Assembly (NCBI GenBank): GCA_030390025.1
Contig: CM059431.1
Coordinates: 157,916,001 to 157,980,000, forward strand
From: Squalus acanthias
Lineage: Eukaryota
Length of the DNA: 64,000 bases
Reading direction: 5' to 3'
In this document: piece after piece, positions 19,463 through 58,822 of the stretch
Layout: each line of letters starts with the position of its first letter
How positions within the stretch are numbered: position 1 is the stretch's first letter
Notes under the pieces: model-generated
Seen by the model: the letters and a program-made list of their open reading frames with translations, nothing else
Told to the model about the DNA's origin: nothing
The model's database searches: none
Translations under genes and position numbers: made by a program

Positions 19463-19509
19463 AGCGGACCAGGTGGGAAGCACCCAGGTGAACGGCATTT
19501 AAGGAGGGT

Positions 19510-20374
19510 GTGTGCGGGAAGTGTGTCCAGCTGCAGCTCATGTGGGACCGCATGACGGCCCTTGAGCTGCGGATGGACTCACTTTGGAGTATCCACGATT
19601 CTGAGAGGGTTGTGGATAGCACATTTAGTGAGTTGGTCACACCGCAGGTTAAGGCCAGCGTAGATAGTACATGGGTGACCAAAAGGCAGAGCAAGGGCAG
19701 GAAGGTAGTGCAGAAATCCCCTGGGGTTGTCTCCCTTAGCAACAGGTTCACCGCCTTAGGTGCTGTTGTCGGGGGGGGATGACTCATCGGGGGAAGGCAC
19801 CAGCAGCCAGGCTCATGGCACCATGACTGGCTCTGTTGCAAAGAAGGGAGGGAAAAAGAGTGGCAGGGCTATAGTAATAGGGGATTCGATTGTAAGGGGA
19901 ATAGATAGGGGTTTCTGTGGTCGCGACCGAGACTCCAGGATGGTATGTTGCCTCCCTGGTGCAAGGGTCAAGGATGTCTCGGCGCGGGTGCAGAACATTC
20001 TGGAGGGGGAGGGGGAACAGCCAGTTGTCGTGATACATGTTGGTACCAACGACGTAGCTAAAAAAAGGGAAGAGGTCCTACAAGTAGAATTTAGGGAGTT
20101 AGGAGCCAAGCTAAAAAGTAGGACCTCGAAGGTAGTAATCTCTGGATTACTACCAGTGCCACGTGCTAGTAAGAGTACAGAGAACAGGATAGTTAGGCTA
20201 AATACGTGGCTTGAGCAGTGGTGTAAGAGGGAGGGTTTTAAATTTTTGAGGCATTGGAACCAGTTTTGTGGTAGGTGTGACCTATACAAAAGGGACGGTC
20301 TACACCTGTGCAAAGATGGAACTGATGTTCTCGGGGTAATTTTTGATAAAGCAGTTCGGGAGCATTTAAACTAG
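19510..20374 (+). CDS. CR1 ORF1 (CxxC, coiled coil, SGNH esterase domain), frameshifted at the G8 run ~19771
   Basis: VCGKCVQLQL; GDSIVRG, HVGTND and DGLH esterase blocks. Confidence 0.85.
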
Positions 20375-20449
20375 CTATGGCAGGGGGCTAGAAACCTATG
20401 TAGTGAAATAGAGGAAAGTGAAAGGCAGACAGAAATAAATGGTAAAAGG

Positions 20450-23316
20450 GTGAGGAACAAAAAACAAAGGGCCAAACTAATTCATAAAAAATGTGAGCAT
20501 AAAAAAAGCCTGAGGGTTTTATACCTTAATGCGAGAAGCATCAGGAACAATGTAGATGAATTAGCTGTGGAAATAGAGGTTAATAATTATGATCTAATTG
20601 GGATTACGGAAACATGGTTGCAGGGTGAGCAGGGCTGGGAGCTTAACATACAGGGGTATTCAGTATTTAGGAAGGATCGACAAAAAAGAAAGGGAGGAGG
20701 GGTAGCATTGCTGGTAAAAGAGGGGATAAATGCAATTGAAAGGAAGGATATTAACTCAGTTAATACAGAATCTATATGGGTGGAGCTAAGAAATAGCGAG
20801 GGGCGAAAAACATTAATAGGAGTGGTATATAGGCCTCCAAATAGTAAAATAGAGGTTGGGGAGGGCATCACGAGGGAAATTAGAGAAGCGTGCAATAAGA
20901 GCACAGCTGTCATCATAGGTGACTTTAACTTACATATAGATTGGACTAGCCTAATCAGTAAAAATAATGAGGAGGAGGAATTCCTTGAGTGTTTAAGGGA
21001 TGGTTATCTGGATCAATATGTCGAGGAACCAACTCGGGAACAGGCTATATTGGACTGGGTACTGTGCAATGAGAAGGGACTAATTAGTAATCTTGTTGTA
21101 CGGGGACCCTTGGGTCAGAGCGATCATAACATGATCGATTTCTCACTCGAAATGGAGAGCGAAGAAATTGACTCAGAGACTAAGGTCCTGAATTTAAACA
21201 AGGGGAATTATGATGCCATTAGACGGGAACTGAGTAGGTCTGATTGGACAACGTTCCTGGGAGGACTGGAGGTAGATAAACAATGGCAAGCATTTAAAGA
21301 TAGAATGACAAAATTGCAAAAATTGTTTATACCAATCTGGCATAAAAGGAAATCTAAAAAGGTGACTCAACCGTGGATAACAGGGGAAATTAGAGACAGC
21401 ATAAAATCCAAAGATAGGGCGTATAAAATAGCCAAAAAAAGAGCCAGAGCGGAAGATTGGGAACATTTAAGATAGAGCAAAGGAGGACAAAGGGCTTAAT
21501 CAAGAGGGGCAAAATAGCTTACGAAAGCAAGCTGGTGGAAAATATAAAAACTAACTCCAAAAGCTTTTATAAGTATATCAAGAGGAAAAGACTGGTGAAA
21601 ACCAAAGTTGGTCCATTGCAGTCAGATATGGGGGAATATATAACGGGAAATAAGGAAATGGCAGACCAACTAAATGCATACTTTGGGTCAGTCTTTACGA
21701 AGGAAGACACAAAAAACCTCCCTGGGATATCGGGAAAAATAGGGACATTGGCAAAGGAGGAACTGACGCAAATCAATATCTCTAAGGATATGGTGTTAAG
21801 GAAGCTAAAGGGATTGAAGGCGGACAAATCCCCAGGGCCTGATAACATGCATCCTAGGGTACTGAAGGAGGTGGCCCCAGAGATAGCGGATGCACTAAGT
21901 ATGATTTTTCAGAATTCATTAGACTCGGGAACAGTGCCCATCGATTGGAGGGTAGCTAACGTTACCCCACTATTCAAAAAGGGGGGTAGGGAAAAAGCAG
22001 GTAATTACAGACCTGTAAGCCTTACATCAGTTGTGGGCAAAATGCTGGAGTCCATCATTAAGGATGAAATAGCGGAGCACTTAGCAAATGGGGACAGGAT
22101 AGGACAGAGTCAACATGGATTTACAAAGGGTAAATCGTGCTTGACTAATCTATTGGAATTTTTTGAGGGAGTAACTGGTAAAATAGATGGGGGAGAGCCA
22201 GTAGATGTGGTGTACCTGGACTTCCAAAAGGCCTTCGATAAGGTCCCACATAAAAGATTAGCATGTAAAGTTGAAGCTCATGGGATAAAGGGGAAAGTAT
22301 TGACGTGGATAGAGAACTGGCTGTCAGATAGAAAACAGAGAGTTGGAATAAACGGCTCATTTTCTGAATGGCAGGCAGTAACGAGTGGGGTACCGCAGGG
22401 ATCTGTCCTGGGTCCCCAGCTGTTCACAATTTACATTAATGACCTGGATCAGGGACTCGGATGCAGCATTTCCAAATTTGCAGACGACACTAAACTAGGA
22501 GGTGGGCTGGGCTCAGAGGAGGAGACCAGGAAGCTCCAGAGCGATTTGGACAGACTGGGTGATTGGGCGGATAAATGGCAGATGCACTATAATGTGGACA
22601 AGTGCGAAGTTATCCACCTTGGGTGCAGGAACGGGAGGGCAAATTATTATTTAAATGGCAATAAATTGGGAGAGGGGGAAGTACAGAGAGACCTGGGTGT
22701 TCTTGTACACCAGTCACTGAAGGCGAGCATGCAGGTGCAACAGGCGGTCAAGAAGGCAAACGGTATGCTGGCCTTCATAGCAAAAGGGTTGGAATACAGG
22801 AACAGGGATACCTTGCTGCAGCTGTACAGGGCACTGGTGAGACCACACCTCGAGTACTGTGTACAGTTTTGGTCGCCTCATCTGAGGAAAGATGTTCTTG
22901 CCATGGAGGGGGTGCAGCGGCGATTCACCAGGCTGATACCAGGAATGGCGGGATTGACCTATGAGGAGAGACTATGTAGTTTAGGGATGTACACACTGGA
23001 GTTTAGAAGATTGAGAGGGGACCTCATAGAAGTGTATAAAATTCTGACAGGTCTAGACAGACTAGATGCAGAAGGAATGTTTCCCTTGGCGGGTGAGAAC
23101 AGAACTAGAGGACATAATTTAAGGATAAGGGCTAAACCATTTAGGACAGAAATGAGGGGGAATTTCTTCACTCAGAGGGTGGTGAACCTGTGGAACTCAT
23201 TGCCACAGAGGGCAGTGTACGCCAGCTCATTAAATATATTTAAGAGGGAATTAGATATATTTCTACAGGCAAAAGGGGTTAAGGGTTACGGAGAGAAGGC
23301 GGGGACGGGATACTGA
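20450..23316 (+). CDS. CR1 ORF2 (APE endonuclease + reverse transcriptase), one frameshift at ~21467
   Basis: YLNARSI, GITETW, GDFN and SDHN (APE); NYRPVSLT, QHGF, LDFQKAFD, GVPQGSVLGP and FADD (RT). Confidence 0.95.
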
Positions 23317-25230
23317 ATTGGAGGATCAGCCATGATCTCATTAAATGGCGGAGCAGGCTCGAAGGGCCGGATGGCCTACTCCTGCTCCTATCTTCTATGT
23401 ATCTATGTATCTATGTATCAATGAAAAAGGTTTGGTTGGGATAGGAACAGGACCGTTTCGGGAAAGAAAGGACAACACCACAGGTAACGATAGGGAGATG
23501 GCTGAAATATGAAATCGTTATTTCGCTTCCATATTTAACAAGGTGACAGAGCATGTGGGCATGATATTGTATGATGAGTTTACTAACAAGATGAGTGCAT
23601 TTAAAATATAAAAGCGGATATATTAAATAAACTAATCAAACTCAAAGAGGATAAAAGCCCTGGTCCAGAAGGATTGCATCGCTACATTTTAAAGAATCTA
23701 GGAAACAGATAGCAGAGGAATTACTACACATATTTAATAATTCATTAGAAAAAGGTGTAGTGCTAGAGGACTTGCGGATAGCTAACGTAATACCTATATT
23801 TAAGAGGAGGGATTGAACATGTCCAGGGAATTATAGACCAGTCAGCTTAATATCGGTGGTAGGAAAAATAATGGGTTGCCTGCTAAAGGTAAAAATAGAA
23901 AAACAACTAGAAGCGAAAAGTATAGTAATGAATAGTCAGCATGGATTTCAAAAGGGAAAATCTTGCTCGTACAATATTAATGAATTTTCTGAAGAGGTAA
24001 CAGAGATTGAGTAGACAATGACAGTGCAGTAGCTTTAATTTATATAGATTTTCAAAAGGCACTCGATAAAGTACCACATAATAGACTAATAAATAAGGTC
24101 AGAGAATGGGGAGTCAGGGGACAAGTAGCAGAATGAACTGCTAGCTGGCTTCAAGACAGAATGCAGTGAGTGGGAGTAAAGGGTAGCGATTCACAGTGGC
24201 TGAAGGTGGGTAGTGGAGTTCCACAGGGATCAGTGCTGGGATTACTGCTGTTCACAATTTACATTAACGAATTAGACTTTGGAATCAAAAACACAATTTC
24301 GAAATTGCGGATGATACCAAATTGTGGGGGGGGGCGGGGGGGTAGTCAATACTGAGGAGGACTGCAACAAATTAGAGGAGGACATTAATAAACTTGCAGA
24401 ATGGGAAAATAATTGTAAATGAAGTTCAACACAGAAAAGCGTGAGGTATTTCATTTTGGTAGGAAGAAGAGGGAGGTCACATCACTTGGAGGATGCGAGT
24501 CTCGGTGGGGTAGAGGAAATAAGGGATCTCGGAGCACAAATACACATATCACTAAAAGTTGCACCACAGGTTAGCAAGACCATAAGAAACAAACCAAGCA
24601 CTAAGGTTTATTTCTAGAGGGATAGAATTGAAAAGTAGTGATGCTATGCTAACCCATTATTGAACCTTGGTTAGACCACACTTAGAGCACTGCGTGCAGT
24701 TCTGGTCGTCATATTATAAAAACGGTATAGAAGCACTGGAGAGGGGGAAGAGAGGATTTGCAAGGATGATACCAGAAATGCGAAGGTATACATCTCAGGA
24801 AAGGATGAACAGGCTGGAACTCTCTTCTCTGGAAAAGAGCAGGCTGAGGGCGACCTATTAGAGGTATTTTAAATTATGAAAGGTTTTGTGAGAGTGGGTA
24901 AAGAGAGAACGTTTCCACTTGTGGGGCCGAGCATAACTAGAGGCCATCAATATAAGAGAGTCACAGTAGGGAATTCACGTAACACTTGTTACCCAAAGAG
25001 TGGTGAGAATGTGGAACTCGCTACCACAGGGAGTGTTTGAAGCGAATAGTATAGATGCATTTAAGGGGAGACTGGACAAGCATATGAGGGAGAAAGGAAT
25101 TGGGGGTTATACTGATAGAGTTAGACGTAAAAGACGGGAGGAGGCTGTAGTGGAGCATAAACGCCGGCATGGACTGGTTAGGCCGAATGGCCTGTTGCTG
25201 TGCATTATATCCGATGTAATCATATGTAAT

Positions 25231-27080: not shown

Positions 27081-27099
27081 TTTGTGTGTGTGTGTGTCT

Positions 27100-27705
27100 G
27101 TTCCCTATATTTATTTTTCCTATGTTTCTTCTTTCACATTTTAACGGTTTCCTATGTTTCCTCTTTTCTATGTTTTCTGATTCTAATATTTTTGGTTTCT
27201 TATGTTTCCTGTTTCTTATGCATCCTGTTACCTATGTTTCCCCTATTTCCAGTTTGCTATCTGTACTTTTTCCTATGTTTCGCATTTCCTATGTTTCCTG
27301 TTTCTTATTTTTTTGTTTCCTATGTTGACTGCTTCCTCTGTCTCCTGTTTCCTTTGTTTATTCTTTCCTATATTTCCTGTTTCCTATATTTCCTGTTTCC
27401 TATATTTACTGTTTCCTACGTTTCCTGTTTTCTATGTTTCCTCTTTCCTGTATTTTCGCTTTCTTATATATTATGTTTCCTTAGTTTCCTGTTACCTATA
27501 TTTCCAGTTTGCTATGTTTCATGTTTCCTATGTTTCCTCTGTCCTATTCTTCCGGTTTCCTATGTACAGTTTCCTATGTTTCCACTTTACCATGTTTATT
27601 GTTTCCCATATTTAATTTCCCCAATTTTCCTATGTTCGATAGTTCCTGTTTCCTATGTTTACTCTTTCCTATATTTATGGTTTCCTATATTTCCTATTCC
27701 CTAAA
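27100..27705 (+). repeat. Same T-rich satellite array
   Basis: tttcctatgtttcctg units (also a short piece at 26611-26667). Confidence 0.95.
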
Positions 27706-30706: not shown

Positions 30707-32824
30707 ATCATATTAGGTATAGTAGGCTTTATAACTATTTAAGACTCAAGAAAGATGGCAGGGCAGGTGATGTGTTGCGACTGCATTATGTGGGAGCACC
30801 TGGACGTCAGTGTGATCTAGGACAAACATGTCCGCGGTAAGTGTCTGCGGCTTGAGGAGCTTCGGCTCAGTGTTGATGAGCTGGAGGCTGAGTTGCGGAC
30901 ACTGCGATTCATCAGGGAGGGAGAAAGTTACTTGGACACTTTATTCCAGGAGGCAGTCACATCCTAAGGATAGGGTCCTCTGATTTGGTCAGTGGTTAGG
31001 GGCAGGTGGATGTGACTGCGAGTGAGGCAGGTACGGGGACCCAGAGGTGGAGGAGCCTCAGAATTTTCAATTGTGCAATAGGTTTGACGTTCTTGCGTCC
31101 TGTATGAATGAAAGCGGTGGCTGCAGGGTGCCAGGGTTCGGGACATCTGCTCTGGGCTGGAGAGGAACTTGCAGTGGGAGGGTGAGGAGCCAGGGGTCTT
31201 GGTCCATGTAGGTACAAACGACATAGGTAGAACTAGGAAAGAAATTCTGCTAAGACAGTATGAGCAGCTAGTGGCTAAATTAAAAAGCAGAACCTCAAGT
31301 GTTATAATGTCTGCATTATTACCTGAGCCACGAGCAAATTGGCATAGGGTAAATAGAATTAGAGCGATGAATGCGTGGCTCAAAGTCTGGTGTGGGAGAA
31401 ATGGGTTTCAATTCCTGGGGCACTGGCACCAGTACTGGGTAAAGTGGGATCTGTATCGTTGGGACGGTCTTCACTTGAACCGTGCTGGGACCAGTGTTCT
31501 GGCGAGTCGTATAACTAGGGCGGTAGAGAGGGCGTTAAACTAAATACTGGGGGGATGGGATCAAATTTGGGAAGATGTGGTAATTGCGAGTCAGCAGAGA
31601 GTGTTGTGAGTTTGGGTAAGTGTGAGAGTTCTTCAATTGTTAGTTCTCTTTAAAACATTCTTGATAAGAGTACTTAAGCAGTTTAAGTGAAGGGGAAAAG
31701 TTAAATATTTGGGATTCTGTTGGTTTAAGAAGAGTAAAACAAGGTTACACTGCAGTAGGAGTAAATTGGCACAGCAGGCAGTGGAAACCAGTTTGACTGA
31801 GTGCAAGTCAGCAGAGGCTGCTGTGAGTGTGGCTGCCTCATCAGCCAGCAGAAGGGGAGTGAGGAGAGCCGCAACAGCAGAGTGGTGGTCTCATTGACCA
31901 GGGAGAGGAGGAGGAACCAGACTGCAGACCACCACCAACAAAAGCACTACAACTGAGGTGCCTGGAGAGAGAGGACAGGAGAGGAGAAGGAGAAAGAAAG
32001 GAAGGCCAAGACCAACACCAGAGGAGGAGAGGCCTTTCCACACTGCCTCCCCAATTGGCCTCCATTTCAGGAGAGGGAGAGAGGGGAGAAAACAGCACCA
32101 GCAACCATCATCTGCTTGGAAGGAGGGAGGAAGAAAACATCTATATCTACATGTGGGTGTTATTTTGGTGCACTCTCCCAGAGACTTTAATTTGCAGGTG
32201 GGGGGAGGAAAGAAGAAAAGAAGAGGGCCGGAATATCCAAGGTGTGTGTGTGTGTGTGTGGCTTTTGAAAGAACTAGGCCGCACACACCACTAATTAAAC
32301 ACCCCTTCCCATTGCCTGACCTGGGACAGCTGGAGCTGCCGAAGTGAAGTCCCCAATTCATTTTCATCTGATTGGGCATCGTTAAGACCTGGTGCAGGAC
32401 TGAGCCTGGGCATCTCCAGCTTTCCCAGGTGAAGACATCTTCTCCCCCCACCAGAAGACCACCAAAAAAAATACTTTAATTTACATCGGAGAGTGCACCC
32501 CCTGCCAACACCCACCCACCCACCATCCTGAGTGGCGACCCTGCCCTTGCGGCTTCCCTCCTTCCCACCACCTCTCTCTCTCTCTTTGTCTCTTGTCTCT
32601 CTCTGCCTCTCTCTCTAAGAGGCACCTCAATTTACTTTTATTAATTGCCCATTGAGCAGAGGGGAGAAGGCCCCTCTCCTAATTAATTCAAATAAAGGGA
32701 GAGGTGTGCCTTCAAATTAACAGCTCCCTCTGCTCAGGGGTAAAAAAAAAAACAACTACCGAGGCCATTAACACCGTCAGGCCTGTGACTTGGGGTGAGT
32801 GTAGCCCTTAAAGACCCACCCATT

Positions 32825-34989
32825 ATGGCGACCACATCTTCGTCGGTGGCGGGGGCAGCGAGGACGTATGCGAGCGTGGCAGCCGGGGCCACGGCCGCAG
32901 CCACGAATCCTCCTGTTAGCCCTTCACCTTTTACCCCCCTTACGAGGAAGAATGGGGTCAAGAGCTACACTCACCCCAACATGAGTATAGAGGCGTGTGT
33001 AAAAGCCATGGCTGGGGATGTCGGCCCTTCAGTCATCGTTGCCGCCTCTGAGATGTACGGCAAGGCTGTGTTCTTCCTGGGGTCGGAGCGGGCGAGTCCC
33101 TGGCCATTGACAAGGGGCTCACCGTGGGTGGGACCTTCCTGCCGGTGGACCCCCTTGAGGCCACCGCACAGAGGATTGTTATCTCCAACGTCCCGCCCTT
33201 TGTTCCGGGTGAGCTCCTCCTCCCCCACCTACGTCAACTGGGGGAGGTGAGGTCGGGGATCACACCCATCCCGCTCGGCTTCCGGGAAGCCAGCCTCCGG
33301 CATGTCTTCTCCTTCCGGCACCAGCTTTTCGTCCGGCTGGCGCGGGAGGAGGACACGGACGGCGCATTCACGGTGCTCCACGGGGGGACCGCCCATCGCG
33401 TCTTCTGGACCTCGGACGGCGTGCGGTGCTACGCCTGTAAGGAGATGGGGCACGCCCGGAAAAACTGCCCCGCCTCCAAGGCCGCCACAACATCCAGTGC
33501 GGCCAGGGCTGGCGCCGCCGCGCCCCCTCCCCATGATACTGTCCGCGCGTCAAGGACGACAGATGTGCAGTCGACGTCGGGGGCCAAAACCATCACGGCC
33601 TCCGGCGGGGGGGAGGGAGAGCGTCCGAGTGGAAGGAAGGCGTTGAAAAAGACAAAACTCCTCAGGGTGGGTCCCCTCGTGGAAGACACCACCGAACTAC
33701 CAGAACTCACGCCCCCGCTCCTCGCGGAGTTGAAGGGGACGCGCAAGGCTGGGGAGGGCCTCATGCCCGGGCCCGTGACCGCAACTGCCGAGGCAGATAA
33801 ATCAAGACCTGCGGCCGGGCTCGGGCCCGAGGGGCCCAAGAAACCCAGTCATCGGGAGGGGGCGGAGAGGGAGGCCCCAGCAAGACATGGAGGCATCCCC
33901 CTCTCCGGGCCCCAACACGTTAAAAAGGAGGCACGACCCCCAGGAGGAGCACAGTGAGGAGGAAGGTCCCTCCGCACAAGGGGAGTCGTCGCCCGCCGCG
34001 GGTGCTGCGCCCCACCCCACCACCGCCACCATCGCGATCGATCGGCAGGGGTCGCCTGTCCCTCGGGAGGGTGAGACAGCTGAGTCTGTCGGACCCGTGC
34101 CTCCCGGGGATGGGGAGGAGACCCTGCCCATGGGGGGGGGTCGCGGAACAACCCGCGGAACTAAATAGTAATAAAGAAGTGCCAGAACCGTTGCTCCTCG
34201 CCGGGTCGGGCGTCCTGGGGACTGGGGCGGGTGAGGACAAAGAGGCCGAAACTGAGCCCGCCCGTTACGACACAGACATCTCCCAGGGACTGCTCGACCT
34301 GGTGGAGGAGTGTAATAATCCCCAGCCCGCTGGGTCGGAGGCTGGTGGCGGGGAGACAGAAAGCCCCCATACTCAGTCTCTGACGTTGGCGCCGGACGTG
34401 CTGGAGGAACTGGGAATTGTTTTCTCCCCGATTTCTCCGGTCTCTCCGGCGCCTGAGGTGGAGGGGTGCCCTGAACCGCCGCCGCCTCCCGGCTCGGCGC
34501 CCCTGAAGGAGCCCAGGGAGGACTCCTCTGCCACCGATCCTGGGGGTGGATCGTGATAGAGGCGGGGCCGGCCGGTGCGGCCGAGCCGTTTGCTGCACCC
34601 CGTGTGACGGACGGGTCGGCCGCCGGTGACGACCTCCCAGAGGAGGACGGGACTCGGTGTTGGGCACTGAGGATGATGTGGAGTCCATCGGCAGTGAGAC
34701 GATGGACGCCCTCGTGCCCTTCACCGACTCTCCCCTCATCCCCGTAGGGAAACTCCGCTAGTTTATAGCCACGTGCCGGGGTCGTCATAATAAGATCCGG
34801 CTGGCCCTCGACAAGTGGTCGGAGCTGGCGCTGCTCGTCAGGTCCTTCCACGCCGCCGTTAAAATCATGGGCGTGGAGAAGGAAGTAAACCGGCCCGAGC
34901 TGCGTCGGCTCATGATGTTGCACACTGGGCTGCTGAGGGAGTGGCGGTCGTCAGTGACCGCGCTCCCTCCCCCCACCCCCGTTAGGTAG
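32825..34989 (+). pseudogene. Tx1 ORF1 (gag-like, zinc knuckle), disrupted
   Basis: RIVISNVPPFVP, CYACKEMGHARKNC; frameshifts across ORFs 32795, 33124 and 33887. Confidence 0.8.
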
Positions 34990-35010
34990 AGGTTGCACTA
35001 TGCTTCTGAG

Positions 35011-38000
35011 ATGAAGATAACCATAGCCAGCCTCAACATCAATGGCAGCAGGGAGGCGCGCCGTAGATTCAATAACTTCTCGGTCCTTTGGGAGGGAAAT
35101 ATGCGGTGTGCTTCCTGCAAGAAACCCACACCGTTCCGGGAGACGAGGCCACGTGGCTCCTGGAGTGGCAAGGAGGGGTCAGCATGAGTCACCTCTCCAA
35201 CAATTCCTGCGGGGTGGCCGTCTTGCTGGCCCCACATTTTCAGCCGGAGGTCTTGAGGGTCAAGGAGCACGTGCCGGGCCGCTTGCTCCAGGTCACTGTT
35301 CGCCTGGGAGGCGTGCCGCTCCATTTAGTGAACGTGTACGCCCCCCAGAACGGTGCACAGCAAGTGCGCTTCTTTGGAGAAGTGTCCGCTCTTCTGGGCT
35401 CCATCGACGTGGGCGAGTGCGTCATCTTCGGGGGAGATTTCAATTGTACCCTCGAGGCGCGGGTCCGGTCGGGTCCCCCGCAAAGCCCGGCGGCGATGGA
35501 GAAGTTGCAGGACCTGGTCGGGTCCTTCGACTTGGTGGACGTCTGGCGAAATCTCCTTCCCGACTCCAGCGCCTTCACGAGTGTGAGGTCTGGAGGAGGA
35601 AGGTCCAGAATCGACCGCCTTTACATTTCCCGGGCGTACGTCTCCTCTGTTCCGGCAGCTTCCATGCGGCCGCTGCCGTGCGCGGAACACCACCTGGTGT
35701 GGGCGGAGCTCGATCCGCTGCGCGCGCGGGGTGAGTCCGCGTACTGGAATTTTAACAATCTGCCGCTGGAGGACGCGCGGTTCCAGGATTCGTTCGCTGG
35801 TTCTGGGCCGACTGGAGAAGGAAGCGGGGAGGCTTCCCCTCCTTGAGGCTATGGTGTGACGTGGGCAAGGCTCACGTCCGCGTCTTCTGTCAGGAGTACG
35901 CGAAGGGGTCGACCAAGAGGCGGGAGGCCCGGGTCGGGCGATTGGAGAAAGAAGTGCTCGACCTGGAGTCCCGTCTCGGTCAAGTCGTCGAAGACCCGGC
36001 CCTGCGGAAGGTGTACGAAGAGAAGAACGGCGCGCTGAAGGACCTGCAGCTGGTCGGGTCCCGAGGTGCGTATGTGAGGTCACGGATCCAGTTCCTGCGG
36101 GACCTGGACCGTGTCTCCCCCTTCTTCTACACGCTGGAAAAAAGACGGGGGGTCCGTAAGCAGCTCTTGGGGCTGCTGGCCGACGACGGATCTCTGGTCT
36201 CGGATCTGGAGAGCATCAGCGCGGAGGCCCGGGCCTATTACGGGGCTCTGTTCTCTTCGGACCCGTCCAGCGAGGATGCACACAGAGTTTTGTGGGAGGA
36301 ACTGCCGAAGGTCGACCCGGAGTGCGCCGAGAATTTAGAAGCTCCGCTAAGCCTGGCGGAGCTGACCGGCGCTCTGCGCCAGCTCTCGAGGGGCAAGTCC
36401 CCGGGGCTGGATGGGCTGACCAGGAGTTCCACAGGGCGTTCTGGGACGTCTTGGGGTACGACAATGCGCGGGTAATGGGGGAACGTCTGGCGACCGGGGA
36501 GATGCACCTCTCTTGGCGCAGGGCGGTCATCGTCCTGCTGCCCAAGAAGGGCGATCTGTGCCTTCTTAAAAACTGGTGCCCGGTCTCCCTCCTCAGCACG
36601 GACTACAAAATTTTCACCAGAGCTATGTCTGCTCGCCTTGGCACCATACTGGCCCACATGATCCACCCCGACCAGTCCTACATGGTCCCGGGCCGGTCAA
36701 TCCACGACAACATCCACCTGGTCCGGGACATGGTCCACCATTCCCAGACGGCTGGTCTGTCGGTCGCCTTCCGTTCCCTGGATCAGGAGAAGGCGTTCGA
36801 CAGGGTGGATCACGAGTATCTTTTCGGGACTCTATGCGCATTCGGATTCGGGACGCATTTCGTCGCCCGGATCCGACTTCTGTACGCCGCCGCGGAGTGT
36901 CTGATTAATGTTAACGGGTCTTTGACGGCGCGACTTCACTTCGGGAGGGGGGTGCGTCGGGAATGCCCCATGTCCGGTCAGTTATACGCCATTTGCATGC
37001 AGCCTTTCCTGCGCCTCTTGCATAAGAGGTTGACGGGACTGGCTCTGCAAGGGCCGGGCATGTAGGTGGTCCTCTCGGCTTACGCCGATGACGTGCTCCT
37101 CGCATTCACGGATCCCGTCGACTTGCGGAGGATGCGAGAATGCCAGCAGATTTACTCGGACGCATCCTCCGCTAAGATCAACTGGGAGAAGTGCTCTGAA
37201 CTCCTGGTGCGCCCATGGCAGTTCGACTCCCTGCCGGAGGAGTTCAGGCCCTTCGCCTGGAGCACAACGCACCTCCTCTACCTGGGAGTCTACCTCAGCC
37301 CGGCCGAGGACGCCTGGCCGGCGAACTGGCAAGAGCTGGAGGCCAAAGTCACCGTTCGCCTAGGGCACTGGACAGGATTGCTCCGACTGTTGTCCTACAG
37401 GGGTCGGGCGCTGGTCATAAATCAGCTGGTGACCGCCATGTTGTGGTACCGGTTGGTCACTTTGATCCCTCCCCCTGCGTTTGTCGCCAAGATGCAGAAG
37501 AAGCTCGTCGACTTCTTCTGGGACAAAAGGAAGCACTGGGTCTCTGCCGCGGTTCTGAGTCTCCCGCTTAGGGAGGGCGGTCAGGCGCTGGTGTGCCTTC
37601 GCACCCAGGTGGCGACTTTCCATCTTCAGATGCTGCAGAGATGCCTGTACGTGGAGAATCCTCCTAGGTGGCATGCGCTGGCGACGTATTTCTTCCACCA
37701 GCTGCACGGCCTCAATTACGACACGCAGCTCCTGTTCGTGAGAGTGGGCGGCACGCGTGCCAGCCTGCAGGAGCTGCCTGTCTTCTACCAGGAACTGCTA
37801 TGGGTTTGGAACAGCGTCGCCTCCAGGTGCAGTTCTCCCCCGTCAGGAGCGGCGGCAGTCTTCGGGAGCCGCTGCTCAGGAATCCGCACCTCCACGACCG
37901 CGGGTTCGGCCGGCTGGCGGAGGGCAGGGCTGTGCCCGGTAAGGTGACTAGAGTCGGGGACCTGCTCGATGGAGGAGGAGCGGGCTGGATGGTGCCGGAG

Positions 38001-38908
38001 GAGTTGGCGAGGCGCATGTCTTGGATCAACGTCCGGCTCGTGGTCAAAGCCATCGAGTCGCTAAAAGTGGCACTGGGCCCCGACTCCACTAGGTGTATCG
38101 AGGAGGCTCGGGCATGTGGTGCGATCCCGTCCGAGCTGACCCCCGTTCGGACGGAATTACTTATCGGCGCCCGGCCCCGAATCCTCCCTCGGGAGCCGCC
38201 GCCTCACCACTTGAGCCTTCTCGGAGAAATGCCCCCTGTGCCCTTTCAACCCGCACGGAGGTGTTTCCTGTACGGGCTGCTCCTGCACGCTCTCCACTTT
38301 GCCATCTTCGTCTGCCGTCTGGACACGCCTTGGCGTACCAGCTTGCCATCCAGCGGAGGCGAAGGTCCCCAATGGAGGGCTCTCTGTCCGCGGGAGTCTT
38401 CCCTTGTTCTATTGGGGACTTGGCCTGGAGGGTGTTGCACGGAGCAGTCCCATGAAATAGATTGTTAAGTAGGTTTACGGACTCCCAGGCCGCTTGCCAT
38501 TTCTGTGGCCTGGAGGAGTTCGTGTTTCACATATATGTTGAGTGCGAGAGGTTGCAGCCCCTCTTTCATTACCTGAAGGGGCTGCTCCTCAATTTCTGGT
38601 TGCACTTCAGCCCCACGCTCCTGATCTACGGTCACCCGGTGCGGAGGGGAGCGGGCAGGTCGGAGGACCTCCTCGTGGGACTGCTGCTGGGCCTGGCTAA
38701 TAAAGCCATTAATTGGTCCAGGCAGCGGGCGGTCGAGGGGGTCGTTCGGCCCGATTGCCTGCCTCTCTTCCGCGGCCATGTTCACGCCCGGGTGGCCCTG
38801 GAGATGGAGCACGCGGTGTCTGCCGGCACGCTTGAGTTTTTCCGCGACCGGTTGGCGCCGCGGGGACTGGAGTGCATCGTCACCCCGGACTACCAAATTT
38901 TAATTTAA
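35011..38908 (+). pseudogene. Tx1 ORF2 (APE-RT-CCHC), disrupted
   Basis: Consecutive ORFs 35088, 35843, 36292, 37066, 37668 and 38462 carry colinear L1/Tx1 motifs. Confidence 0.9.
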
Positions 38909-39329
38909 TTTGTTAAGTTTCCTTTAAAGTTTTATTTAGTTACAGATAATTGATTGGTTTACATCAAAAGAGTAAGAAGAGTAAAACAAGGTTACACTGC
39001 AGTAGGAGTAAAGTGGCACAGCAGGCAGTGGAAACCAGTTTTCTAACCAATCAGCAGGGGGGACTCATTGTGGCTGTAAACAAACAATCAGTATAGAAAG
39101 ACCAGTGCGAGTGCGAACAAGCACTGAGTGCGAGTCAGCAGAGAGTGATGTGAGTTTGGGTAAGTGTGAGAGTTCTTTAATTGTTAGTTCTCTTTAAATC
39201 ATTCTTGGTAAAAGTACTTAAGCAGTTTAAGTGAAGGGGAAAAGTTAAATATTTGGGATTCCGTTGGTTTAAGAAGAGTAAAATAAGCTTACACTGCAGC
39301 AGGAGTAAATTGGCACAGCAGACAGTGGA

Positions 39330-39465
39330 AACCAGTTTTCTAACCAATCAGCAGGGGTGACTCATTTGGCTGTAAACAAACAAACAATATAAAAAGACCA
39401 GTGCTAGTGCGAGCAAGCACTGAGTGCGAGTCAGCAGAGAGTGCTGTGAGTTTGGGTAATTGTGA
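39330..39465 (+). promoter_or_regulatory. Putative Pol II promoter in the CR1-B monomer (CCAAT, TATA, leader, splice-donor-like GTGAGT/GTAA)
   Basis: aaccaatcag ~39342, tataaaaag ~39388; the element's 5' end corresponds to a point ~35 nt after the TATA motif (monomer start 39426). Confidence 0.45.
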
Positions 39466-39690
39466 GTTCGGGTGAGTGGGGTGCAGGGTGATCTTTTCAA
39501 ACTTTAACTCTGTGGGTTGTAGTTAATAAGGCATTTCGCGTGCAGAGTGACAGTTGGTAAACTATTTAACTGGTGTAATTTAGAGGGATTGATTTAATTT
39601 AAATCCAATTAATTAGAGGGGATACTAGCATCTATAATCGGGCAGAGAGTGTCCATAACTAACAATTAAAAATTTAATTAATTACATAGA

Positions 39691-40644
39691 ATGGAGCAGG
39701 TGATGTGTTACTGTTCCGAGATGTGGGAGTCGGTGGACCCCATTGAGGCTCACGGTGATTCCATCTGTGACAATTGTCTGCTGCTACAGGAACTCCAGCT
39801 CCGTGTTGATGAGCTGGAGTCTGAGCTTCAGACACTGCGACACATCAGGGAGGGGGAGAAGTACCTGGACACTGTGTTTCAGGAGGTGGTCACACATATG
39901 AAGTTAATTAATCCAGATGTAGCCCATGGTCAGGGACAGGACGGTGTGACTACGATTGAGGCAGGTACAGGGATCCAGGAGGTAGTGTTGGAGGAGCCGC
40001 AGCCCTTGCACTTGTCCAAAATGTTCGAGGTTATTACTCCCTGTGGGTACAGGAGCAGGGACTGCAGGGAGGATGAGCAACCTGGCCACAGCACCGTGGA
40101 ACGGAGGGCCATTCAAGAGGGGGGAGTAAATAGAAATGTTGTAGTGGTTGGGGATAGTATTATTAGGGGGATAGATAGAGTTCTCTGCAGCCGAGAGCAA
40201 GAGTCCCGTAGGCTGTGTTCCCTGCCCGGTGCCAGGGTTAAGGACATCTCCTCTGGGCTGGAAAGAAACTTGCAGTGGGAGGGGGTGGATCCAGTTGTCG
40301 TGGTCCATGTTTGTACAAACGACGTAGATAGGACAAGGAAGCCGGTTCTTTTAAAGGAATATGAGCAGCTAGGGGTCAAATTAAAAAACAGAACCTCAAG
40401 GGTAATAATCTCTGGGTTATTACCTGAGCCACGAGCGAATTTGGCTAGGACAAATAAAATTAGAGAGTTAAATGAGTGGCTCAAAGACTGGTGTGGGACT
40501 ATTGGATTTTGCTTCCTGGGACACTGGCACCAGTACTGGGGCTGGAGGGAGCTGTTCCGTTTGGACGAGCTTCACTTGGCCAGTGCTGGGACGAGAGTCC
40601 TGGCGGATCATATAACTAGGGCTGTAGAGAGGGATTTAAATTAA
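39691..40644 (+). CDS. CR1-B ORF1, open reading frame intact (zinc finger, coiled coil, SGNH esterase)
   Basis: MEQVMCYCSEMWE..ICDNC; GDSIIRG, HVCTND, DELH. Confidence 0.85.
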   Translation: MEQVMCYCSEMWESVDPIEAHGDSICDNCLLLQELQLRVDELESELQTLRHIREGEKYLDTVFQEVVTHMKLINPDVAHGQGQDGVTTIEAGTGIQEVVLEEPQPLHLSKMFEVITPCGYRSRDCREDEQPGHSTVERRAIQEGGVNRNVVVVGDSIIRGIDRVLCSREQESRRLCSLPGARVKDISSGLERNLQWEGVDPVVVVHVCTNDVDRTRKPVLLKEYEQLGVKLKNRTSRVIISGLLPEPRANLARTNKIRELNEWLKDWCGTIGFCFLGHWHQYWGWRELFRLDELHLASAGTRVLADHITRAVERDLN

Positions 40645-42960
40645 ATAGTGTGTGGGGGGGGGGGCGGTGGGGGAGGATCCTAGAGTGCAAATAATAAAAA
40701 TGACAACAGAGAAGGTCATAGAATTAGGTAGCAGTGGGGAAATTAAAAACCAGAGTGTGTCAGGAAGGGACAGAATGTATGGAGTAAAAGGTAAAGTAAT
40801 AAAAACGTCCAAAGCAGGAACTAAGTGTCACAAAAATTGTTTGAAAGTTCTCTATCTGAATGCACGTAGCATTCGTAACAAAACAGACGAGTTAATGGCA
40901 CAAATAACTACATATGGGTATGATCTTGTGGCCATTACAGAAACATAGCTGCAGGGTGACAATGCCTGGGAATTAAACATAACAGGTTATTTAACGATTA
41001 GGAAGGACAGGCAGGAAGGAAGGGGAGGTGGGGTGGCTATGTTAATAAAGGAAGGAATCACTGTAATACAGAGAAATGATATTGGGTCAAAAGATCAGGA
41101 TAATGAAACAGTTTGGGTGGAGATAAGGAATAATAAGGGGAAAAAGCATTCGTGGGCGTAGTCTATAGGCCTCCGAACAGTTGCAACTCTGTTGGACGGA
41201 GTATCAATCAGGAAAAAGTTGAGGGTTGTAATAAGGGAACATCTATAATTATGGGGGATTTTAACCATCATATTAATTGGACAAATCAAATTGGGCTTGA
41301 GGATGAGTTCATTGAGTGTATTAGGGATGGGTTTCTTGAGCAGTATGCAACTGAACCGACCAGGGGGTAAGCAACCTTAGATCTGGTCCTGTGTAACGAG
41401 ACAGGATAAATAAAAAATGTCCTAGTAAAGGATACCCTTGAAATGAGTAACCATAACATGGTTGAATTCCATATTCAATTAGAGGGTGAGAAGATTGGAT
41501 CTCAAACAAGCGTGCTAAGCTTGAATAAAGGAGACTATGAAGGTATGCCAGCGGAATTGAGTAGAGTGGATTGGGAAAATAGATTAAAGGGTAAGACGGT
41601 ACATGAAGTGCTGTACATTTAAGGAGTTATTTTACAACTTCCAAAAAATATATATTCCACTGAGAAGAAAAGGGTGTAAAAGAAAAGACAGTCATCCGTG
41701 GCTAAGTAAAGAAGTTAAGGATAGCATTCGACTAAAAACAATGCCATATAAGGTAACCAAATCCAGTGGGAGGAGAGAGGATTGGGAAAACTTTAAAAGA
41801 CAGCAAAAAATAACAAAAAGTTTGATTAAGAAAGGGAAGATAGATTATGAAAGTAAATTAGCAAAAAATATAAAAACAGATAGTCAGAGATTTTATAGTT
41901 ATATAAAAAGAAAAAGGGTGGCTAAAGTAAATGTTGGTCCCTTAGAGGATGAGACCTGGAAATTAATGGTTGGAAATATGAAGATGGCAAATACACTGAA
42001 TGAATATTCTGTATCAGTCTTTACAGTAGCGGACACTAAGGATATCCCAACACTGGACAAACAGGGGGCTATAGGGGGAGAGGAGCTAAACAAAATCAAA
42101 ATCACTAACGAAGTGGTACTCGGTAAAATAATGGGACTCAAGGCGGATAAATCACGTGGACCTGATGACTTACATCCTAGGGTCTTGAGGTAAGTGTCGG
42201 TAGGGATTGTGGATGCATTGGTAATAATTTTCTAAAACTCCCTGGACTCAGCAAAGATCCCGGCAGACTGGATAACTGCGAAAGTAACAGCCTTATTTAA
42301 AAAGGGCAGTAGACAGAAGGATGGAAACTATAGACCGGTTAGCCTAACATCTGTGGTAGGTAAAATTTTGGAGTCCATTATTAAGGAGACCGGAACCGGA
42401 ATTTTGGATAATCATAATTTAATAGGACATAGTCAGCATGGTTTTATAATGTTTGACAAATTCGCTGGTGTTCTTTGAGGAAGTAACATACAGGGTGGAT
42501 AAAGGGGAACCAGTGGATGTGGTGTATTTAGAATTCCAAAAGGCATTTGACAAGTTGCCACACAAAAGGTTATTGCTTAAGATAAAAAATCACGGGATTG
42601 GGGTTAATATTCTGGCATGGATAGAGGATTGGCTATCTAACAGAAGGCAGAGTGTTGGGATAAATGGTTCATTCTCAGACTGGCAATCAGTAACTAATGG
42701 TGTTCTGCAGGGGTCACTGCTGGGTCCCCAACTCTTTGCAATCTATATTAACGATTTGGAGGAGGGGACCGACTGTAACATATCAAAGTTTGCAGATGAT
42801 ACTAAGATGAGAGGGAAAGTAGTGAGTGAGGAGGACATAAAAAATCTGCAAGGGGACATAGACAGGCTAAGTAAGTGGGCAGAGATTTGGCAGATGGAAT
42901 ACAATACTGCAAAGTGTGAGGTAATGCACTTTGGCAGGAAAAATAGTAGATCAAGTTATT

Positions 42961-43723
42961 GGCCCGAAAATTAGACCTAATACGCGAGAGTACCCACTGT
43001 GTACTCTCGCATATTAGTTCCAGAATTGCCGGTTTCTTGCATGCACTGCGCAAGCGCGGGAAACCGGCACTTCGTGAATTGCAAAGGGGGCGGTTCCAAA
43101 GTGAACCGCGTGCGCACTACAGTTTGTGCGCACGCAGTGCACTTAGTTTTTTGTTCAGGTTTGAACGCGCAGGTAAGTGTTGAAGATTTTACACATAAAG
43201 AAAGCAGGCGTAGGCACCCCTTTTAATAAGGTAAGTAGTTAATTAAGCGTTATTTTAAAAAAAATCAACAGGTTTATCTTTTTTAGAGATTTTAAAGAAA
43301 GATAAGTTTATTTTTATAACTTTTAAAAAGATTTTTAATTTTTTCAAAAATTTAATTTTTTGTTTAAAGTGGTTAATTTATTTAACTATAGTTATTTTAT
43401 TAATGTGACAGCTTTTTTAAAAATTTAATTGAGGTTTAGGTGTTCTTTTGGGGGCTTGTAGTATTCATAGCTTTGACAGCACTTGCTGTCAAAACTATGA
43501 ATGAAAGATGGTGCGCTGCCATTGGCTCTAACTGAATCACGTGATCCCAGAGCTCGCACGAACTAATTGCGCCTCTGGGACATGCAATCACTGCACGCTG
43601 GCAACAGGGAGAGGCCCAGAAACTGAAGTTCGTGTGGGCCCGAAACAAAAATGTAGGCGCGGAGTGCGATATCGCAGGGAATCCTTACCCCCGTGGGAAC
43701 CATCGATGTTTAATTTTTGGGCC
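42961..43723. mobile_element. PIF/Harbinger-like MITE
   Basis: TIRs ggcccgaaaatta / taatttttgggcc, 3-bp TSD ATT within CR1 agttattatct; internal hairpin 43463-43502. Confidence 0.8.
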
Positions 43724-46700
43724 ATTATCTAAATGGCAAGAATCTGGAATGTACTGAAGTACAAAGGGATCTGGGGGTCCTGGTGCACGAAACTCAAAAG
43801 GTTAGTATGCAGGTGCAGCAAGTGATTAAGAAGGCCAACTGAATGTTGGCTTTAATTGCTAAGGGGATAGAATATAAAAAATAGGGAGGTATTGCTTCAG
43901 TTGTACAAGGTATTGGTGAGACCGCACCTGGAATACTGCATACATTTTTGGTGTCCATACTTAAGAAAAGACATACTTGCTCTCGAGTCAGTACAAAGAA
44001 GGTTCGCTCGGTTAATCCCGGGGATGAGGGGATGAACATATGAGAAGAGGTTGGGTAGATTGGGACTCTACTCATTGGAGTTCAGAAGAATGAGAGGTGA
44101 TCTTATTGAAACATATAAGATTGTGAAGGGGTTGGATCGGGTGTATGATGGGAGGATGTTCCCGATGATGGGTGAAACTAGAACTAGGGGGCATAGTCTT
44201 TGAATAAGGGGCTGCTCTATCAAAACTGAGATGAGAAGCAACTACTTCACTCAGAGGGTGGTAGGTCCATGGAATATGGTGCCCCAAAATGCTGTAGAAG
44301 CTACATCATTACATAAATTTAAAACAGAAATAGACAGTTTCCTAGAAGTAAAGGGAATTAAGGGTTACGGGGAGAGGGCAAGAATTTGGACACGAGTCTA
44401 GGTTCGGATCGGTCATGGCCCTGTGGGTAGCGTAGCGGGCCCAGGCGCCGTGTAGCCTGATCCTACTCCTATTTCGTGTGTCCAATTCTGTTAGGTTCAG
44501 GAGATGGTTCTGTGATAGTAGATTGGCGGTTAGGATCAGATCAGCCATGATCTTATTGAATGGCGGAGCAGGCTCGAGGGGCCAATTGGCCTAATCCTGC
44601 TCCTATTTCTAATAATTCAAAGATTAGAGACACGGCAATAGAGAAAGGTATTAATATTAGAAATGATAAGTAGAGCGTGACAGGAAGGGATAGGGTGTAC
44701 AAATGTAAGATTAAATCAACAGATAACGCTAGAGGTTACAAAAATAATAAAAGAACAAAACTAAAGTCTCTGCCTTTGAATGCACGTAGCATTCAAAACA
44801 AAACAGATGAACCGATAGCGCAAATAAAAATAAATAAATATGATCTGATAGACATTACAGAAACATGGCTGCAGGATGACATAAATTGGGACCTGAATAT
44901 TGAAGGGTACATGTCATTTAGGAAGGACAGGAAGGTGGGAAAAGGTGGAGGGGTGGCCCTGTTATTTAATTATGGTATTAGAACAATAGAGAGGGATGAC
45001 CTAAGTTCAGGAAACGAGGATGGAGTAGCGCTTTGGGTAATGATGAGAAATAATAAATGCAAGAAGTCAATTGTGGGAGTGCTGTTCAGGCCCCCTAACA
45101 GTAACCACATGGTAGGATGGAGTATAAAGGACGAAGTAATGGGAGCTTGTCAGAACGGTACGGCAATAATCATGGGGGATTTTAAACTGCATATAGACTG
45201 GAAAAATCAGATGGCCAAAGGTAGCATAGATGAGGAGATCTTGGAATGTTTTCAGGATAATTTCTTACAACAGCACGTTTTGGAGAAAACCAGAGAGCAG
45301 GCTATACTAGACCTGGAATTGTGCAACGAGATAGGATTAATTAATGACCTCATAGTGAAGGCGTCCCTAGGTAGCAGCGATCATAATATGATTGTATTTT
45401 ATGTTCAGTTTGAGAGAGAGATGAGTGGGTCCAAGACTAGTAATTTAAACTTAAATAAGGGCAATTATGAGGGCATGAAAGCAAAGCTAGCTAAAGTGAA
45501 CTGGCAAATTATGTTAAGGGATAGTTCAATAGAGTTGCAGTGGCAGACATTTAAGGGGATATTTCAAAATACACAGAATATATACATTCCAACAAGAAAG
45601 AAAAATTCCAAGGGGTGGATAACTAAAAAAGTTAAAGATAGTATTAAATTAAAGCAAAAGCATATAATTGCGCAAAGATGTGTAGCAGGTCAGAAGATTG
45701 GACAGAATATAAAAAACAGCAAATAATTACTAAAAGATTAATAAGGAGAGAAAAATTAGAGTACGAGAGAAAGCTAGCTAGAAATATAAAAACCGATAGT
45801 AAGAGTTTAAACAGATATTTTAAAAAGACAAATTAACAAAGTCAGCGTTCGTCCAATAAAATGTGAGTCTGGGGAATTAATAATGGGACATAAGGAGATG
45901 GCAGTTGAATTGAACAGGTATTTTTTCATCGTTCTTCACAATAGAGGATACAAGTAACATCCCAGAAATAGCTGTAAATCAGGAAATGGAAGGGAGGGAG
46001 AAACTCAAGAAAATAATAATAATAACCGCAAGTGGTACTGAGCAAATTGTTGGAGCTGCGGGCTGACAAGTCCCCGGGTCCTGATGGACTTCATCCTAGG
46101 GTCTTAAAATAAGTGGCTAGTGAGATATTTGATGCGTTGGTTTTAATTTTCCAAAATTCCCGAGATTCGTGGAAGGTTCCATTAGATTGGAAAATAGCGA
46201 ATGTAACCCCTTTATTTAAAAAGGGAGGGAGACAAAAAGCAGGAAGCTGCAGGCCAGTTAGCTTAACATTTGTCATAGGGAAGATTTTAAAAAGCTATTT
46301 TTAAAGATGTTATAACAGGGCACTTAGAAAGGTCCAAAGTAATCAGGCAGAGTCAGCATGGTTTTGTGCAAGGGAAATCATGGTTAAATAATTTATTGGA
46401 GTTCTTTGAGGAAGTGACAAGTGCTGTGGATAAAGGGGAACCGGCGGATGTACTGTACTTAGATTTCCAGAAGGCATTTGATAAGATGCCACATCAAAGG
46501 TTATTGTGGAAAATAAAATTTCATGGTGTAGGGGGTAACATATTGGCATGGATTGAAGATTGGCCAGCTAACAGGAAACAGAGAGTAGGCATAAATGGGT
46601 CATTTACTGATTGGCAAAATGTAACGAGCGGTGTGCCACAGGGATCAGTGCTGGGGCCTCAACTTTTTACAATTTATATAAATGACTTGGATGAAGGGAC

Positions 46701-46890
46701 CGAAGGTATGGTTGCTAAATTTGCTGATGACACAAGGATAGATAGGAAAGTAAATTGTGAAGAGGACACAAGGAGGCTTAAAGGGATATAGATAGGTTAA
46801 GTGAGGGGGCAAAGATATGGCAAATGGAGTATAATGTGTGGAAAATGTGAAGTTGTCCATTTTGGCAGGAAGAATAAAACAGAAGCAACT

Positions 46891-48032: not shown

Positions 48033-48400
48033 ATGTTTCCCCTTTTACCTCATGTTCCATATGTTTCACGTTTTCTATGTTTCCTCTTTCCTATATTTAC
48101 GGTTTCATATATTGCATGTTGCCTATGTTTACTGTTTCCTATGGTTCCTTTTATCATTATTTACTGATTCCTCTATTTACTGTTTCATAACTTTCATGTT
48201 TCCCCAATTTCCTCCATCCTATATTTATGGGCTCCTATATTTCCTGTTTCTTACGTTTAATGTTTCCTATGTTTTCTCTTTACTATGGTTCCTGTTTCCT
48301 ATATTTCCTGTTTCATTTGTCTCTTCTTTCTTTTATTTACTGTTTCCTATGTTTAAAGTTTCCTGTATTTACGGTTGCCTATATTAATTTTTTCGAGGTT
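48033..48400 (+). repeat. Same T-rich satellite array
   Basis: tgtttcct/atgtttact units. Confidence 0.9.
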
Positions 48401-58690: not shown

Positions 58691-58691
58691 G

Positions 58692-58822
58692 CAGTGTCCC
58701 AGAGATACAAAGTCCCAGAGATAGTCAGCGTCCCAGAGAGTCAGAATCCTAGAGACTCTCTGGGACTCTGCCTCTCTCTAGGACTCTGTCTCTCTGGGAC
58801 TCTGTCTCTCTGGGACTCTGAC
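58692..58822. repeat. Palindromic array of ~16-bp units (cagagtcccagagaga x4 / tctctctgggactctg x4)
   Basis: Units switch strand at ~58753. Confidence 0.85.

What the first reader, a model, noticed from the sequence alone, without database searches (positions are those of the whole stretch)
31726..39041. Tx1 element inserted in a CR1 promoter monomer, with a 69-bp target duplication
Seen: 31726-31794 and 38973-39041 are a 69-bp direct repeat with 1 mismatch. The equivalent stretch of the next monomer (~39270) differs from both at about 4 diagnostic sites. Removing the Tx1 and one copy of the repeat restores a 297-bp monomer, matching the neighbouring 296-bp unit. The Tx1 3' end (..aaaagag) echoes the target (aagaagag). 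Known: many Tx1-clade elements are target-specific (Xenopus Tx1L into Tx1D transposons; others into U2, 5S, tRNA or microsatellites), and L1-type TSDs are usually much shorter than 69 bp. Inference: this could be a Tx1 family that targets the 5' repeats of another retrotransposon, with unusually wide staggered cleavage.
Basis: partly seen in the sequence, partly recalled or inferred. Interest (0 to 1): 0.75.

Follow-up and report, generated by a model that had tools for sequence, protein, structure and literature searches.

The report
Tx1 LINE targets CR1 promoter repeat
A now-broken jumping gene sits in the promoter-like repeat of a different jumping gene, at the same base its relatives use in two other organisms; the 69-letter repeat around this copy is real but likely a one-off, because those relatives show repeats of about 8 and 16 letters.

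Summary
The 69-bp repeat is real (68/69). It flanks a full-length, decayed Tx1-clade LINE (RT 62% identical to Xenopus Tx1L) inside a 297-bp 5' monomer of an esterase-bearing CR1-type LINE. Targeting is supported: contigs from two other organisms join the same Tx1 3' end at the same base. Wide cleavage as a family trait is not supported: their 5' junctions give about 8 bp and about 16 bp, the latter on a separately 5'-truncated copy. The four 'diagnostic' sites do not prove copying, because both 69-bp copies simply match the monomer seen in other runs. A 69-bp duplication therefore cannot be told from a 228-bp target deletion in a longer array. The junction likely formed at insertion: the element starts with an extra G plus the monomer's predicted start site, next to a top-strand look-alike of the nick site (post hoc). 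TE-targeting Tx1 families are known; a CR1 promoter target was not found in eight paper searches. This scan already noted the same targeting on other DNA of this genome.

The parts
31585..31725 (+). 5' end of the host CR1-type LINE: left part of the split monomer, starting 6 nt after the predicted start site; holds the 37-nt leader's last 31 nt and a splice-donor-like GG|GTAAGT (label recalled)
   Evidence: 95% match of 31585-31794 to 39129-39338; leaders compared
31726..31794 (+). left copy of the 69-bp repeat
   Evidence: equals the monomer in other runs (records 16, 21, 31)
31795..31795 (+). extra G that fits neither the monomer's next base (T) nor the base before the leader (C); likely a reverse-transcribed cap
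   Evidence: sequence; precedent in PMC6425141 and PMC2912911 passages
31796..31832 (+). 37-nt leader at the Tx1 5' end, 33/37 identical to the monomer leader 39419-39455; the likeness stops exactly at the donor-like site
31795..38972 (+). full-length, decayed Tx1-clade LINE, 7178 bp
32825..34985 (+). ORF1, broken by frameshifts, with a CCHC zinc-knuckle hit just below Pfam's cut-off; end approximate
35011..38908 (+). ORF2 (APE endonuclease, RT, C-terminal Cys/His region), about 5 frameshifts and 2 stops
38909..38972 (+). 64-nt AT-rich 3' UTR without a poly(A) tail, ending in a target-like repeat
   Evidence: the same end is joined at 31726 in X6 and X7
38973..39041 (+). right copy of the 69-bp repeat; the family's fixed 3' insertion site is at its left edge
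39041..39055 (+). top-strand look-alike of the bottom-strand nick site, overlapping a CCAAT-box-like motif; the equivalent cut would be 39044|39045
   Evidence: post hoc; best site for 2 of 3 query widths
39092..39123 (+). TATA-like box at 39092 and initiator-like A at 39123, 31 nt apart; the same spacing recurs at 39388/39419 (labels recalled)
39129..39466 (+). second monomer (296 bp) and the start of a third
39682..44613 (+). host LINE body: ORF1 with SGNH/GDSL esterase, broken EN-RT ORF2, 3' end near 44613

Best explanation
This is a dead, full-length Tx1-clade LINE sitting at a fixed site in the 5' monomer of a CR1-type LINE, a site its family also uses in two other organisms, and its 69-bp flanking repeat is likely a one-off long target-site duplication made at insertion, not the family's normal cut. 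Shown: element identity, the shared 3' site, and other copies with about 8- and 16-bp duplications. Inferred: the Tx1 endonuclease nicks the bottom strand near 31726|31727, and the target-like RNA tail helps priming. The RNA likely began at a monomer's TATA-driven start site, so the copy carries the CR1 leader plus a cap-derived G. In this copy the top strand likely broke about 70 bp downstream, at or near an inverted look-alike of the nick site, instead of 8-16 bp away.
For: RT 62% identical to Xenopus Tx1L ORF2 against only about 67 bits to human L1 ORF2. Tx1 3' end joined before 31726 in X6 and X7, plus a one-base variant before 31727 in X7 (table 7); contigs at depth 127 (X6) and 238 (X7) reach across that junction by my reading of the from_end column (table 3). 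Joint 31733->31830 in X6 (depth 105, 2 contigs; record 18 has 49 and 70 letters on its two sides) and X7 (depth 31) gives about 8 bp. A loose end behind 31741 in X6 and X7 maps to Tx1 position 38049 with 1 mismatch in 19: a 5'-truncated copy with about 16 bp, so a separate event at the same site. Extra G plus leader start at an initiator-like A 31 nt after a TATA-like box. The look-alike site 39041-39055 was reached near the junction in 0.3-1% of 2000 shuffles. Long duplications occur sporadically in LINE insertions (1 of 25 ZfL2-2 inserts, PMC2666801 passages).
Against: Only 2 of the 5 runs laid list the 3' junction. In X1 the single loose end before 31726 is CR1 3'-region sequence, not Tx1. 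X19 lists a different Tx1 3' UTR behind 38936. The 69-bp copies share no derived change; the likelihood ratio for duplication over two independent monomers is at most about 1.7. Tx1 and host are about equally decayed (about 1.3 vs 1.4 frameshifts per kb), so little time separated them. The look-alike test was post hoc, used mononucleotide shuffles, and at the narrowest width another site (about 39190) ranked first; the junction lies 3 nt short of the predicted cut. No genome was held, so no copy from the window's own species was tabulated.
Confidence: 0.6

Rival explanations
1. Same targeted insertion, but with a 228-bp target-site deletion: the top strand broke in the previous monomer of a longer array, which in a 297-bp repeat looks exactly like a 69-bp duplication.
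For: The two 69-bp copies share no derived change and equal the common monomer; likelihood ratio at most about 1.7 against it. The look-alike site exists in every monomer. Long target truncations are known for LINEs (PMC2666801 passages).
Against: It needs a break 228 bp away when an equivalent site lies about 70 bp away. In wild-type cells of that study the one long alteration was a duplication.
Confidence: 0.22
2. The insertion first duplicated 150 bp (nick to next leader, with the CCAAT and TATA segment) by pairing of the cDNA's leader with the next monomer's leader; a later 81-bp deletion left 69 bp.
For: The element begins with a monomer-like leader, and the next leader lies 150 bp after the nick. 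An earlier unchecked note (e1-9921193) describes locally copied TATA segments. X7 shows a TATA segment before 31796.
Against: The Tx1 leader differs from the local leader 39123-39159 at 5 of 37 sites, more than a local copy should. The deletion would have to end exactly at the start site and leave a G, with no microhomology. The X7 contig is not shown to continue into Tx1 and is probably an ordinary monomer.
Confidence: 0.08
3. One reading: the family's endonuclease normally cuts the two strands about 69 bp apart, as R9 does at 126 bp.
For: The 68/69 match, the look-alike top-strand site, and the R9 precedent (PMC6895275 passages).
Against: Both other 5' junctions seen give about 8 and about 16 bp, in or near the 10-20 bp usual for APE LINEs.
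Confidence: 0.05
4. No true targeting: one or a few old insertions were multiplied as cargo of the CR1 or as DNA, giving many identical junctions.
For: The 8-bp junction is identical in two organisms at high depth; the host starts 6 nt after a predicted start site and is as decayed as the Tx1.
Against: Three different 5' junctions (8, 16 with truncation at 38049, and 69 bp) share one 3' site. Uniform 5' junctions also arise by co-transcription with the target, as in R2 (PMC3774820 passages).
Confidence: 0.05

Closest known systems
Tx1L of Xenopus laevis (inserts into the DNA transposon Tx1D)
   Same: Two ORFs, APE endonuclease plus RT; RT 62% identical; sequence-specific insertion into another transposon (PMC1950540 and PMC4494074 passages).
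   Different: The target here is the promoter-like 5' monomer of a LINE, and this copy starts with the target's own leader.
Crocodilian Tx1-Mar (Mariner-N4_AMi), Tx1-8_Crp/Tx1-4_AMi (LTR elements), Tx1-9_AMi (about 300 bp inside the 5' end of Harbingers); Kojima 2015, PMC4494074
   Same: Tx1 families that prefer other transposons; transcription from the flanking target is proposed there for SINEU (section 15 and passages).
   Different: No CR1 or other non-LTR target is named in the section and passages read; supplementary figures were not seen.
R2 elements co-transcribed with 28S rRNA (Eickbush et al. 2013, PMC3774820)
   Same: Fixed 3' junction; 5' ends that carry slightly diverged copies of target sequence; uniform or variable 5' junctions depending on cDNA-target pairing (passages). 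It likely works like this.
   Different: R2 has a restriction-like endonuclease and a ribozyme. Here the enzyme is APE-type, no Rfam family matched, and the 5' end looks capped. Not a member.
R9Av of Adineta vaga (126-bp stagger)
   Same: Long duplication around a site-specific non-LTR element (PMC6895275 passage).
   Different: There it is described as the element's stagger; here other copies show about 8 and 16 bp.
Human L1 with a spliced 5' transduction from an LTR7Y promoter (PMC6425141)
   Same: Untemplated G, then a foreign-promoter leader, in front of the element (passages).
   Different: There the promoter lies about 126 kb away and donor and acceptor are given; here the leader comes from the insertion target and no acceptor was found.

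Membership tests
Tx1 clade | ORF2 with APE endonuclease followed by RT | tested here: met
   PF03372 and PF00078 above cut-off; colinear with Tx1L ORF2 residues 29-1292
Tx1 clade | RT closer to Tx1L than to mammalian L1 | tested here: met
   62% identity, 280 bits to P0036 vs about 67 bits to human L1 ORF2 (different programs); no tree built
Tx1 clade | Separate ORF1 with CCHC knuckle (feature recalled) | tested here: inconclusive
   zf-CCHC E=0.0018, 18.7 bits, below the 20.8 cut-off
Target-specific Tx1 family (Kojima's rule: over 20% of flanks of one type) | Share of copies with the same flank | tested here: inconclusive
   Same site in 2 of 5 runs laid, with three 5' junction types in all; the share cannot be counted from contigs and no genome was held
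Target-specific Tx1 family | Endonuclease nicks the target in vitro | not testable with these tools
   needs a nicking assay
R9-like fixed long stagger | Most copies carry the long duplication | tested here: not met
   both other 5' junctions seen give about 8 and 16 bp
CR1 clade (host element) | Esterase ORF1 plus APE-RT ORF2 (feature recalled; also found in L2-type elements) | tested here: met
   Lipase_GDSL_2 at 39682-40644, RVT_1 at 42450-42974
CR1 clade (host element) | RT groups with named CR1 rather than L2 elements | not tested
Promoter monomer (as in rodent L1) | Drives transcription from the repeat | not testable with these tools
   CCAAT-, TATA- and initiator-like motifs at the usual spacing, and both elements start at or near that site; contigs cannot show starts

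The most novel reading that the evidence does not exclude
A LINE that parasitises another LINE's promoter: the Tx1 family lands inside the CR1 monomer, is transcribed from the CR1 TATA promoter as a capped, leader-bearing RNA, and its endonuclease can use two inverted look-alike sites about 70 bp apart, so that a discrete long-duplication class (about 68-72 bp) recurs beside the ordinary 8-16 bp class. That would show an APE endonuclease choosing its second-strand cut by sequence at a distance.
Probability: 0.2. Interest if true: 0.7.

Novelty: new variant of a known kind. Interest (0 to 1): 0.45.

Why it matters
Tx1 families aimed at DNA transposons and LTR elements are in print; one aimed at the promoter repeat of another LINE, and carrying that repeat's leader, adds a 'promoter parasite' case that can be tested from genomes alone. 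How the second strand is cut in LINE insertion is still described as unclear (PMC6895275). A fixed target with many independent copies gives a natural histogram of second-strand breaks. The 69-bp repeat by itself is a modest curiosity unless it recurs.

Tried and rejected
Two exact-pattern scans of metagenome contigs found 0 matches. A look-up of earlier findings by sequence found nothing. No Rfam family reached its gathering score in the window, so no known ribozyme at the Tx1 5' end. No listed contig bridges 31794|31795; X6 and X12 have no cover at 31803-31826 and 185 pieces were not shown: this is absence in contigs, not evidence. X19 has no cover at 38962-38967, likewise. No RNA holder was listed; X12 is only guessed to be RNA. 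The high X1 depth at 31803-31826 and the X7 TATA-segment loose end before 31796 were set aside as probably ordinary monomer leaders that fit there better than at the shortened 31585 start. The X6 loose end before 31859 looks like an acceptor or a sister 5' UTR; left unresolved. Splicing as the origin of the leader-Tx1 join: the likeness stops at a donor-like site, but from the 8-bp junction form no GT..AG register gives this join (checked by eye); a 4-nt microhomology deletion fits too, so splicing is unproven. The mutation-sharing test could not separate duplication from deletion.
Full report
Observation. The two stretches match at 68 of 69 bases and the match ends on both sides. The next monomer differs at 4 sites from the left copy and 5 from the right. 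Removing the element and one copy gives a 297-bp unit that aligns to the 296-bp neighbour.

Anatomy. Between the copies lies a 7178-bp element with a broken ORF1 (ATG 32825; weak CCHC hit) and a broken ORF2 from 35011 to 38908 with APE endonuclease and RT. It is colinear with Xenopus Tx1L ORF2, 62% identical over 213 RT residues, and far weaker against human L1. It is the only Tx1-like element in the window. The highest identity among the 120 listed homologues is 68%, to a protein of the ray Hemitrygon akajei, so the host is likely a cartilaginous fish (inference). Each monomer has CCAAT-, TATA- and initiator-like motifs (labels recalled), with 31 nt from TATA to the initiator A in both full units. 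The host begins 6 nt after that A. The Tx1 begins with one extra G and then a 37-nt leader 33/37 identical to the monomer leader, and the likeness stops exactly at a donor-like GG|GTAAGT.

Other copies. No genome was held. One run search listed 24 runs, 20 of them holding part of the stretch, at most 0.33 of its words, so these runs hold the family and not this exact copy. I laid 5 of the 24: X1, X6, X7, X19 on 38400-39269 and X1, X6, X7, X12 on 31575-31905. Several tables were cut (79 joints, 1305 loose ends and 18518 pieces not shown; 12 loose ends and 185 pieces not shown). In X6 and X7 (organisms B and C) the Tx1 3' end is joined before 31726, with a one-base variant before 31727 in X7. 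In one search, contigs at depth 127 (X6) and 238 (X7) reach across that junction by my reading of the from_end column. Low-depth records in the same runs are at 2-10, which suggests many copies, though the tool warns that depth is no copy number. Two 5' junctions appear at the same site in both runs. One joins 31733 to 31830 with one T between (depth 105 and 31), an 8-bp duplication on a copy lacking most of the leader. The other leaves the monomer after 31741 and continues at Tx1 position 38049, a 5'-truncated copy with about 16 bp. With the window's copy that makes three 5' junction types on one 3' site. Against: X1 lists only one loose end before 31726 and it is CR1 3'-region sequence; X19 lists a different 3' UTR. 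So the junction is listed in 2 of 5 runs.

Is the 69 bp a true duplication? None of the 4 runs lists another letter at 31740, 31744, 31756 or 31778 (table 3), and at the one mismatch all 4 runs read T like the left copy. So both copies show the common monomer (left 0 changes, right 1) and the differences belong to monomer 39270. I counted by hand about 18 private changes in 524 bp of monomer (3.4%). With that rate the likelihood ratio for duplication over two independent monomers is at most about 1.7. Tx1 and host carry similar frameshift loads (about 5 in 3.9 kb and 4 in 2.85 kb), so little time separated them. In a 297-bp array a 69-bp duplication equals a 228-bp deletion. Two things favour a junction made at insertion. 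First, the extra G at the predicted start site, read as a reverse-transcribed cap in L1 work (PMC6425141, PMC2912911). Second, the top strand just beyond the junction (39041-39055) is the monomer's best look-alike of the bottom-strand nick site for 2 of 3 query widths, reached near the junction in 0.3-1% of 2000 shuffles and anywhere in the monomer in 4-11%. That test is post hoc, and the predicted cut is 3 nt beyond the junction.

Mechanism. Shown: fixed 3' site, target-like tail, leader at the 5' end, variable 5' junctions. Inferred: sequence-specific first nick; RNA started at a monomer promoter and capped; uniform multi-copy junctions like the 8-bp form propagated by cDNA-target pairing, as proposed for R2 (PMC3774820); in this copy a rare distant top-strand break. 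How the leader became fused to the Tx1 body (splicing or a 4-nt microhomology deletion) is open.

Comparison and novelty. Tx1 families targeting piggyBac, Mariner, Harbinger and LTR elements are described (PMC4494074). APE LINEs usually give 10-20 bp and R9 126 bp (PMC6895275); sporadic long duplications and deletions occur (PMC2666801). Eight searches gave no paper that, from listing or passages, describes a Tx1 targeting a CR1 promoter repeat. Subscription papers and Repbase are outside the library, and the supplementary figures of PMC4494074, which list targets, were not seen. What I saw: section 15 and passages of PMC4494074; passages only of PMC12203849, PMC2666801, PMC3747384, PMC2912911, PMC6425141, PMC4838377, PMC3774820, PMC1950540, PMC1919474 and PMC6895275; all others as search listings. 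The R9 paper and Kojima and Fujiwara 2004 were seen only as citations. Unchecked notes of this scan already describe Tx1 landing in CR1 promoter repeats elsewhere in this genome; I did not test whether they concern this same family.

Verdict. Real insertion; targeting of the CR1 monomer likely (about 0.85); the 69 bp is likely a one-off, and a duplication rather than a deletion at roughly 60:25. New variant of a known kind, interest 0.45.

Noticed in passing
window 42961-43723: 763-bp non-coding insert in the host's ORF2 with short terminal inverted repeats (12 of 13 matching) and a 3-bp ATT duplication; a sibling copy at 59283-60403 (-) lacks it. Looks like a Harbinger-type MITE (label recalled).
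   Followed up: partly
window 30750-31584 and 44614-46880: The host LINE itself interrupts an older relative between its ORF1 and ORF2, with no duplication of 7 bp or more found: four nested layers in all.
   Followed up: partly
window 19079-19462: 83-bp unit x 4.6 at 100% identity in front of another, more intact CR1-type element (19509-23422); a different monomer type.
   Followed up: no
run X1, loose end before window 31726: One contig joins CR1 3'-region sequence (best match 44082-44102) at the exact Tx1 site; could be another RNA inserted there in trans, or a rearrangement.
   Followed up: partly
run X6, loose end before window 31859: A pyrimidine-rich stretch ending in CAG replaces 31833-31858: a sister 5' UTR or a splice acceptor.
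   Followed up: no
window 534-1953, 3470-4260, 16650-18460, 27098-27703, 48050-48400, 52990-54730: Dispersed, decayed 16-bp minisatellite arrays of one family.
   Followed up: no
window 2113-2789, 17660-17817, 58687-58826: Fold-back (self-inverted) stretches of 677, 158 and 140 bp.
   Followed up: no
window 32825-38908: The Tx1 ORFs keep a CpG observed/expected ratio of 0.84 against 0.42 in the host ORF2, despite similar frameshift loads.
   Followed up: no
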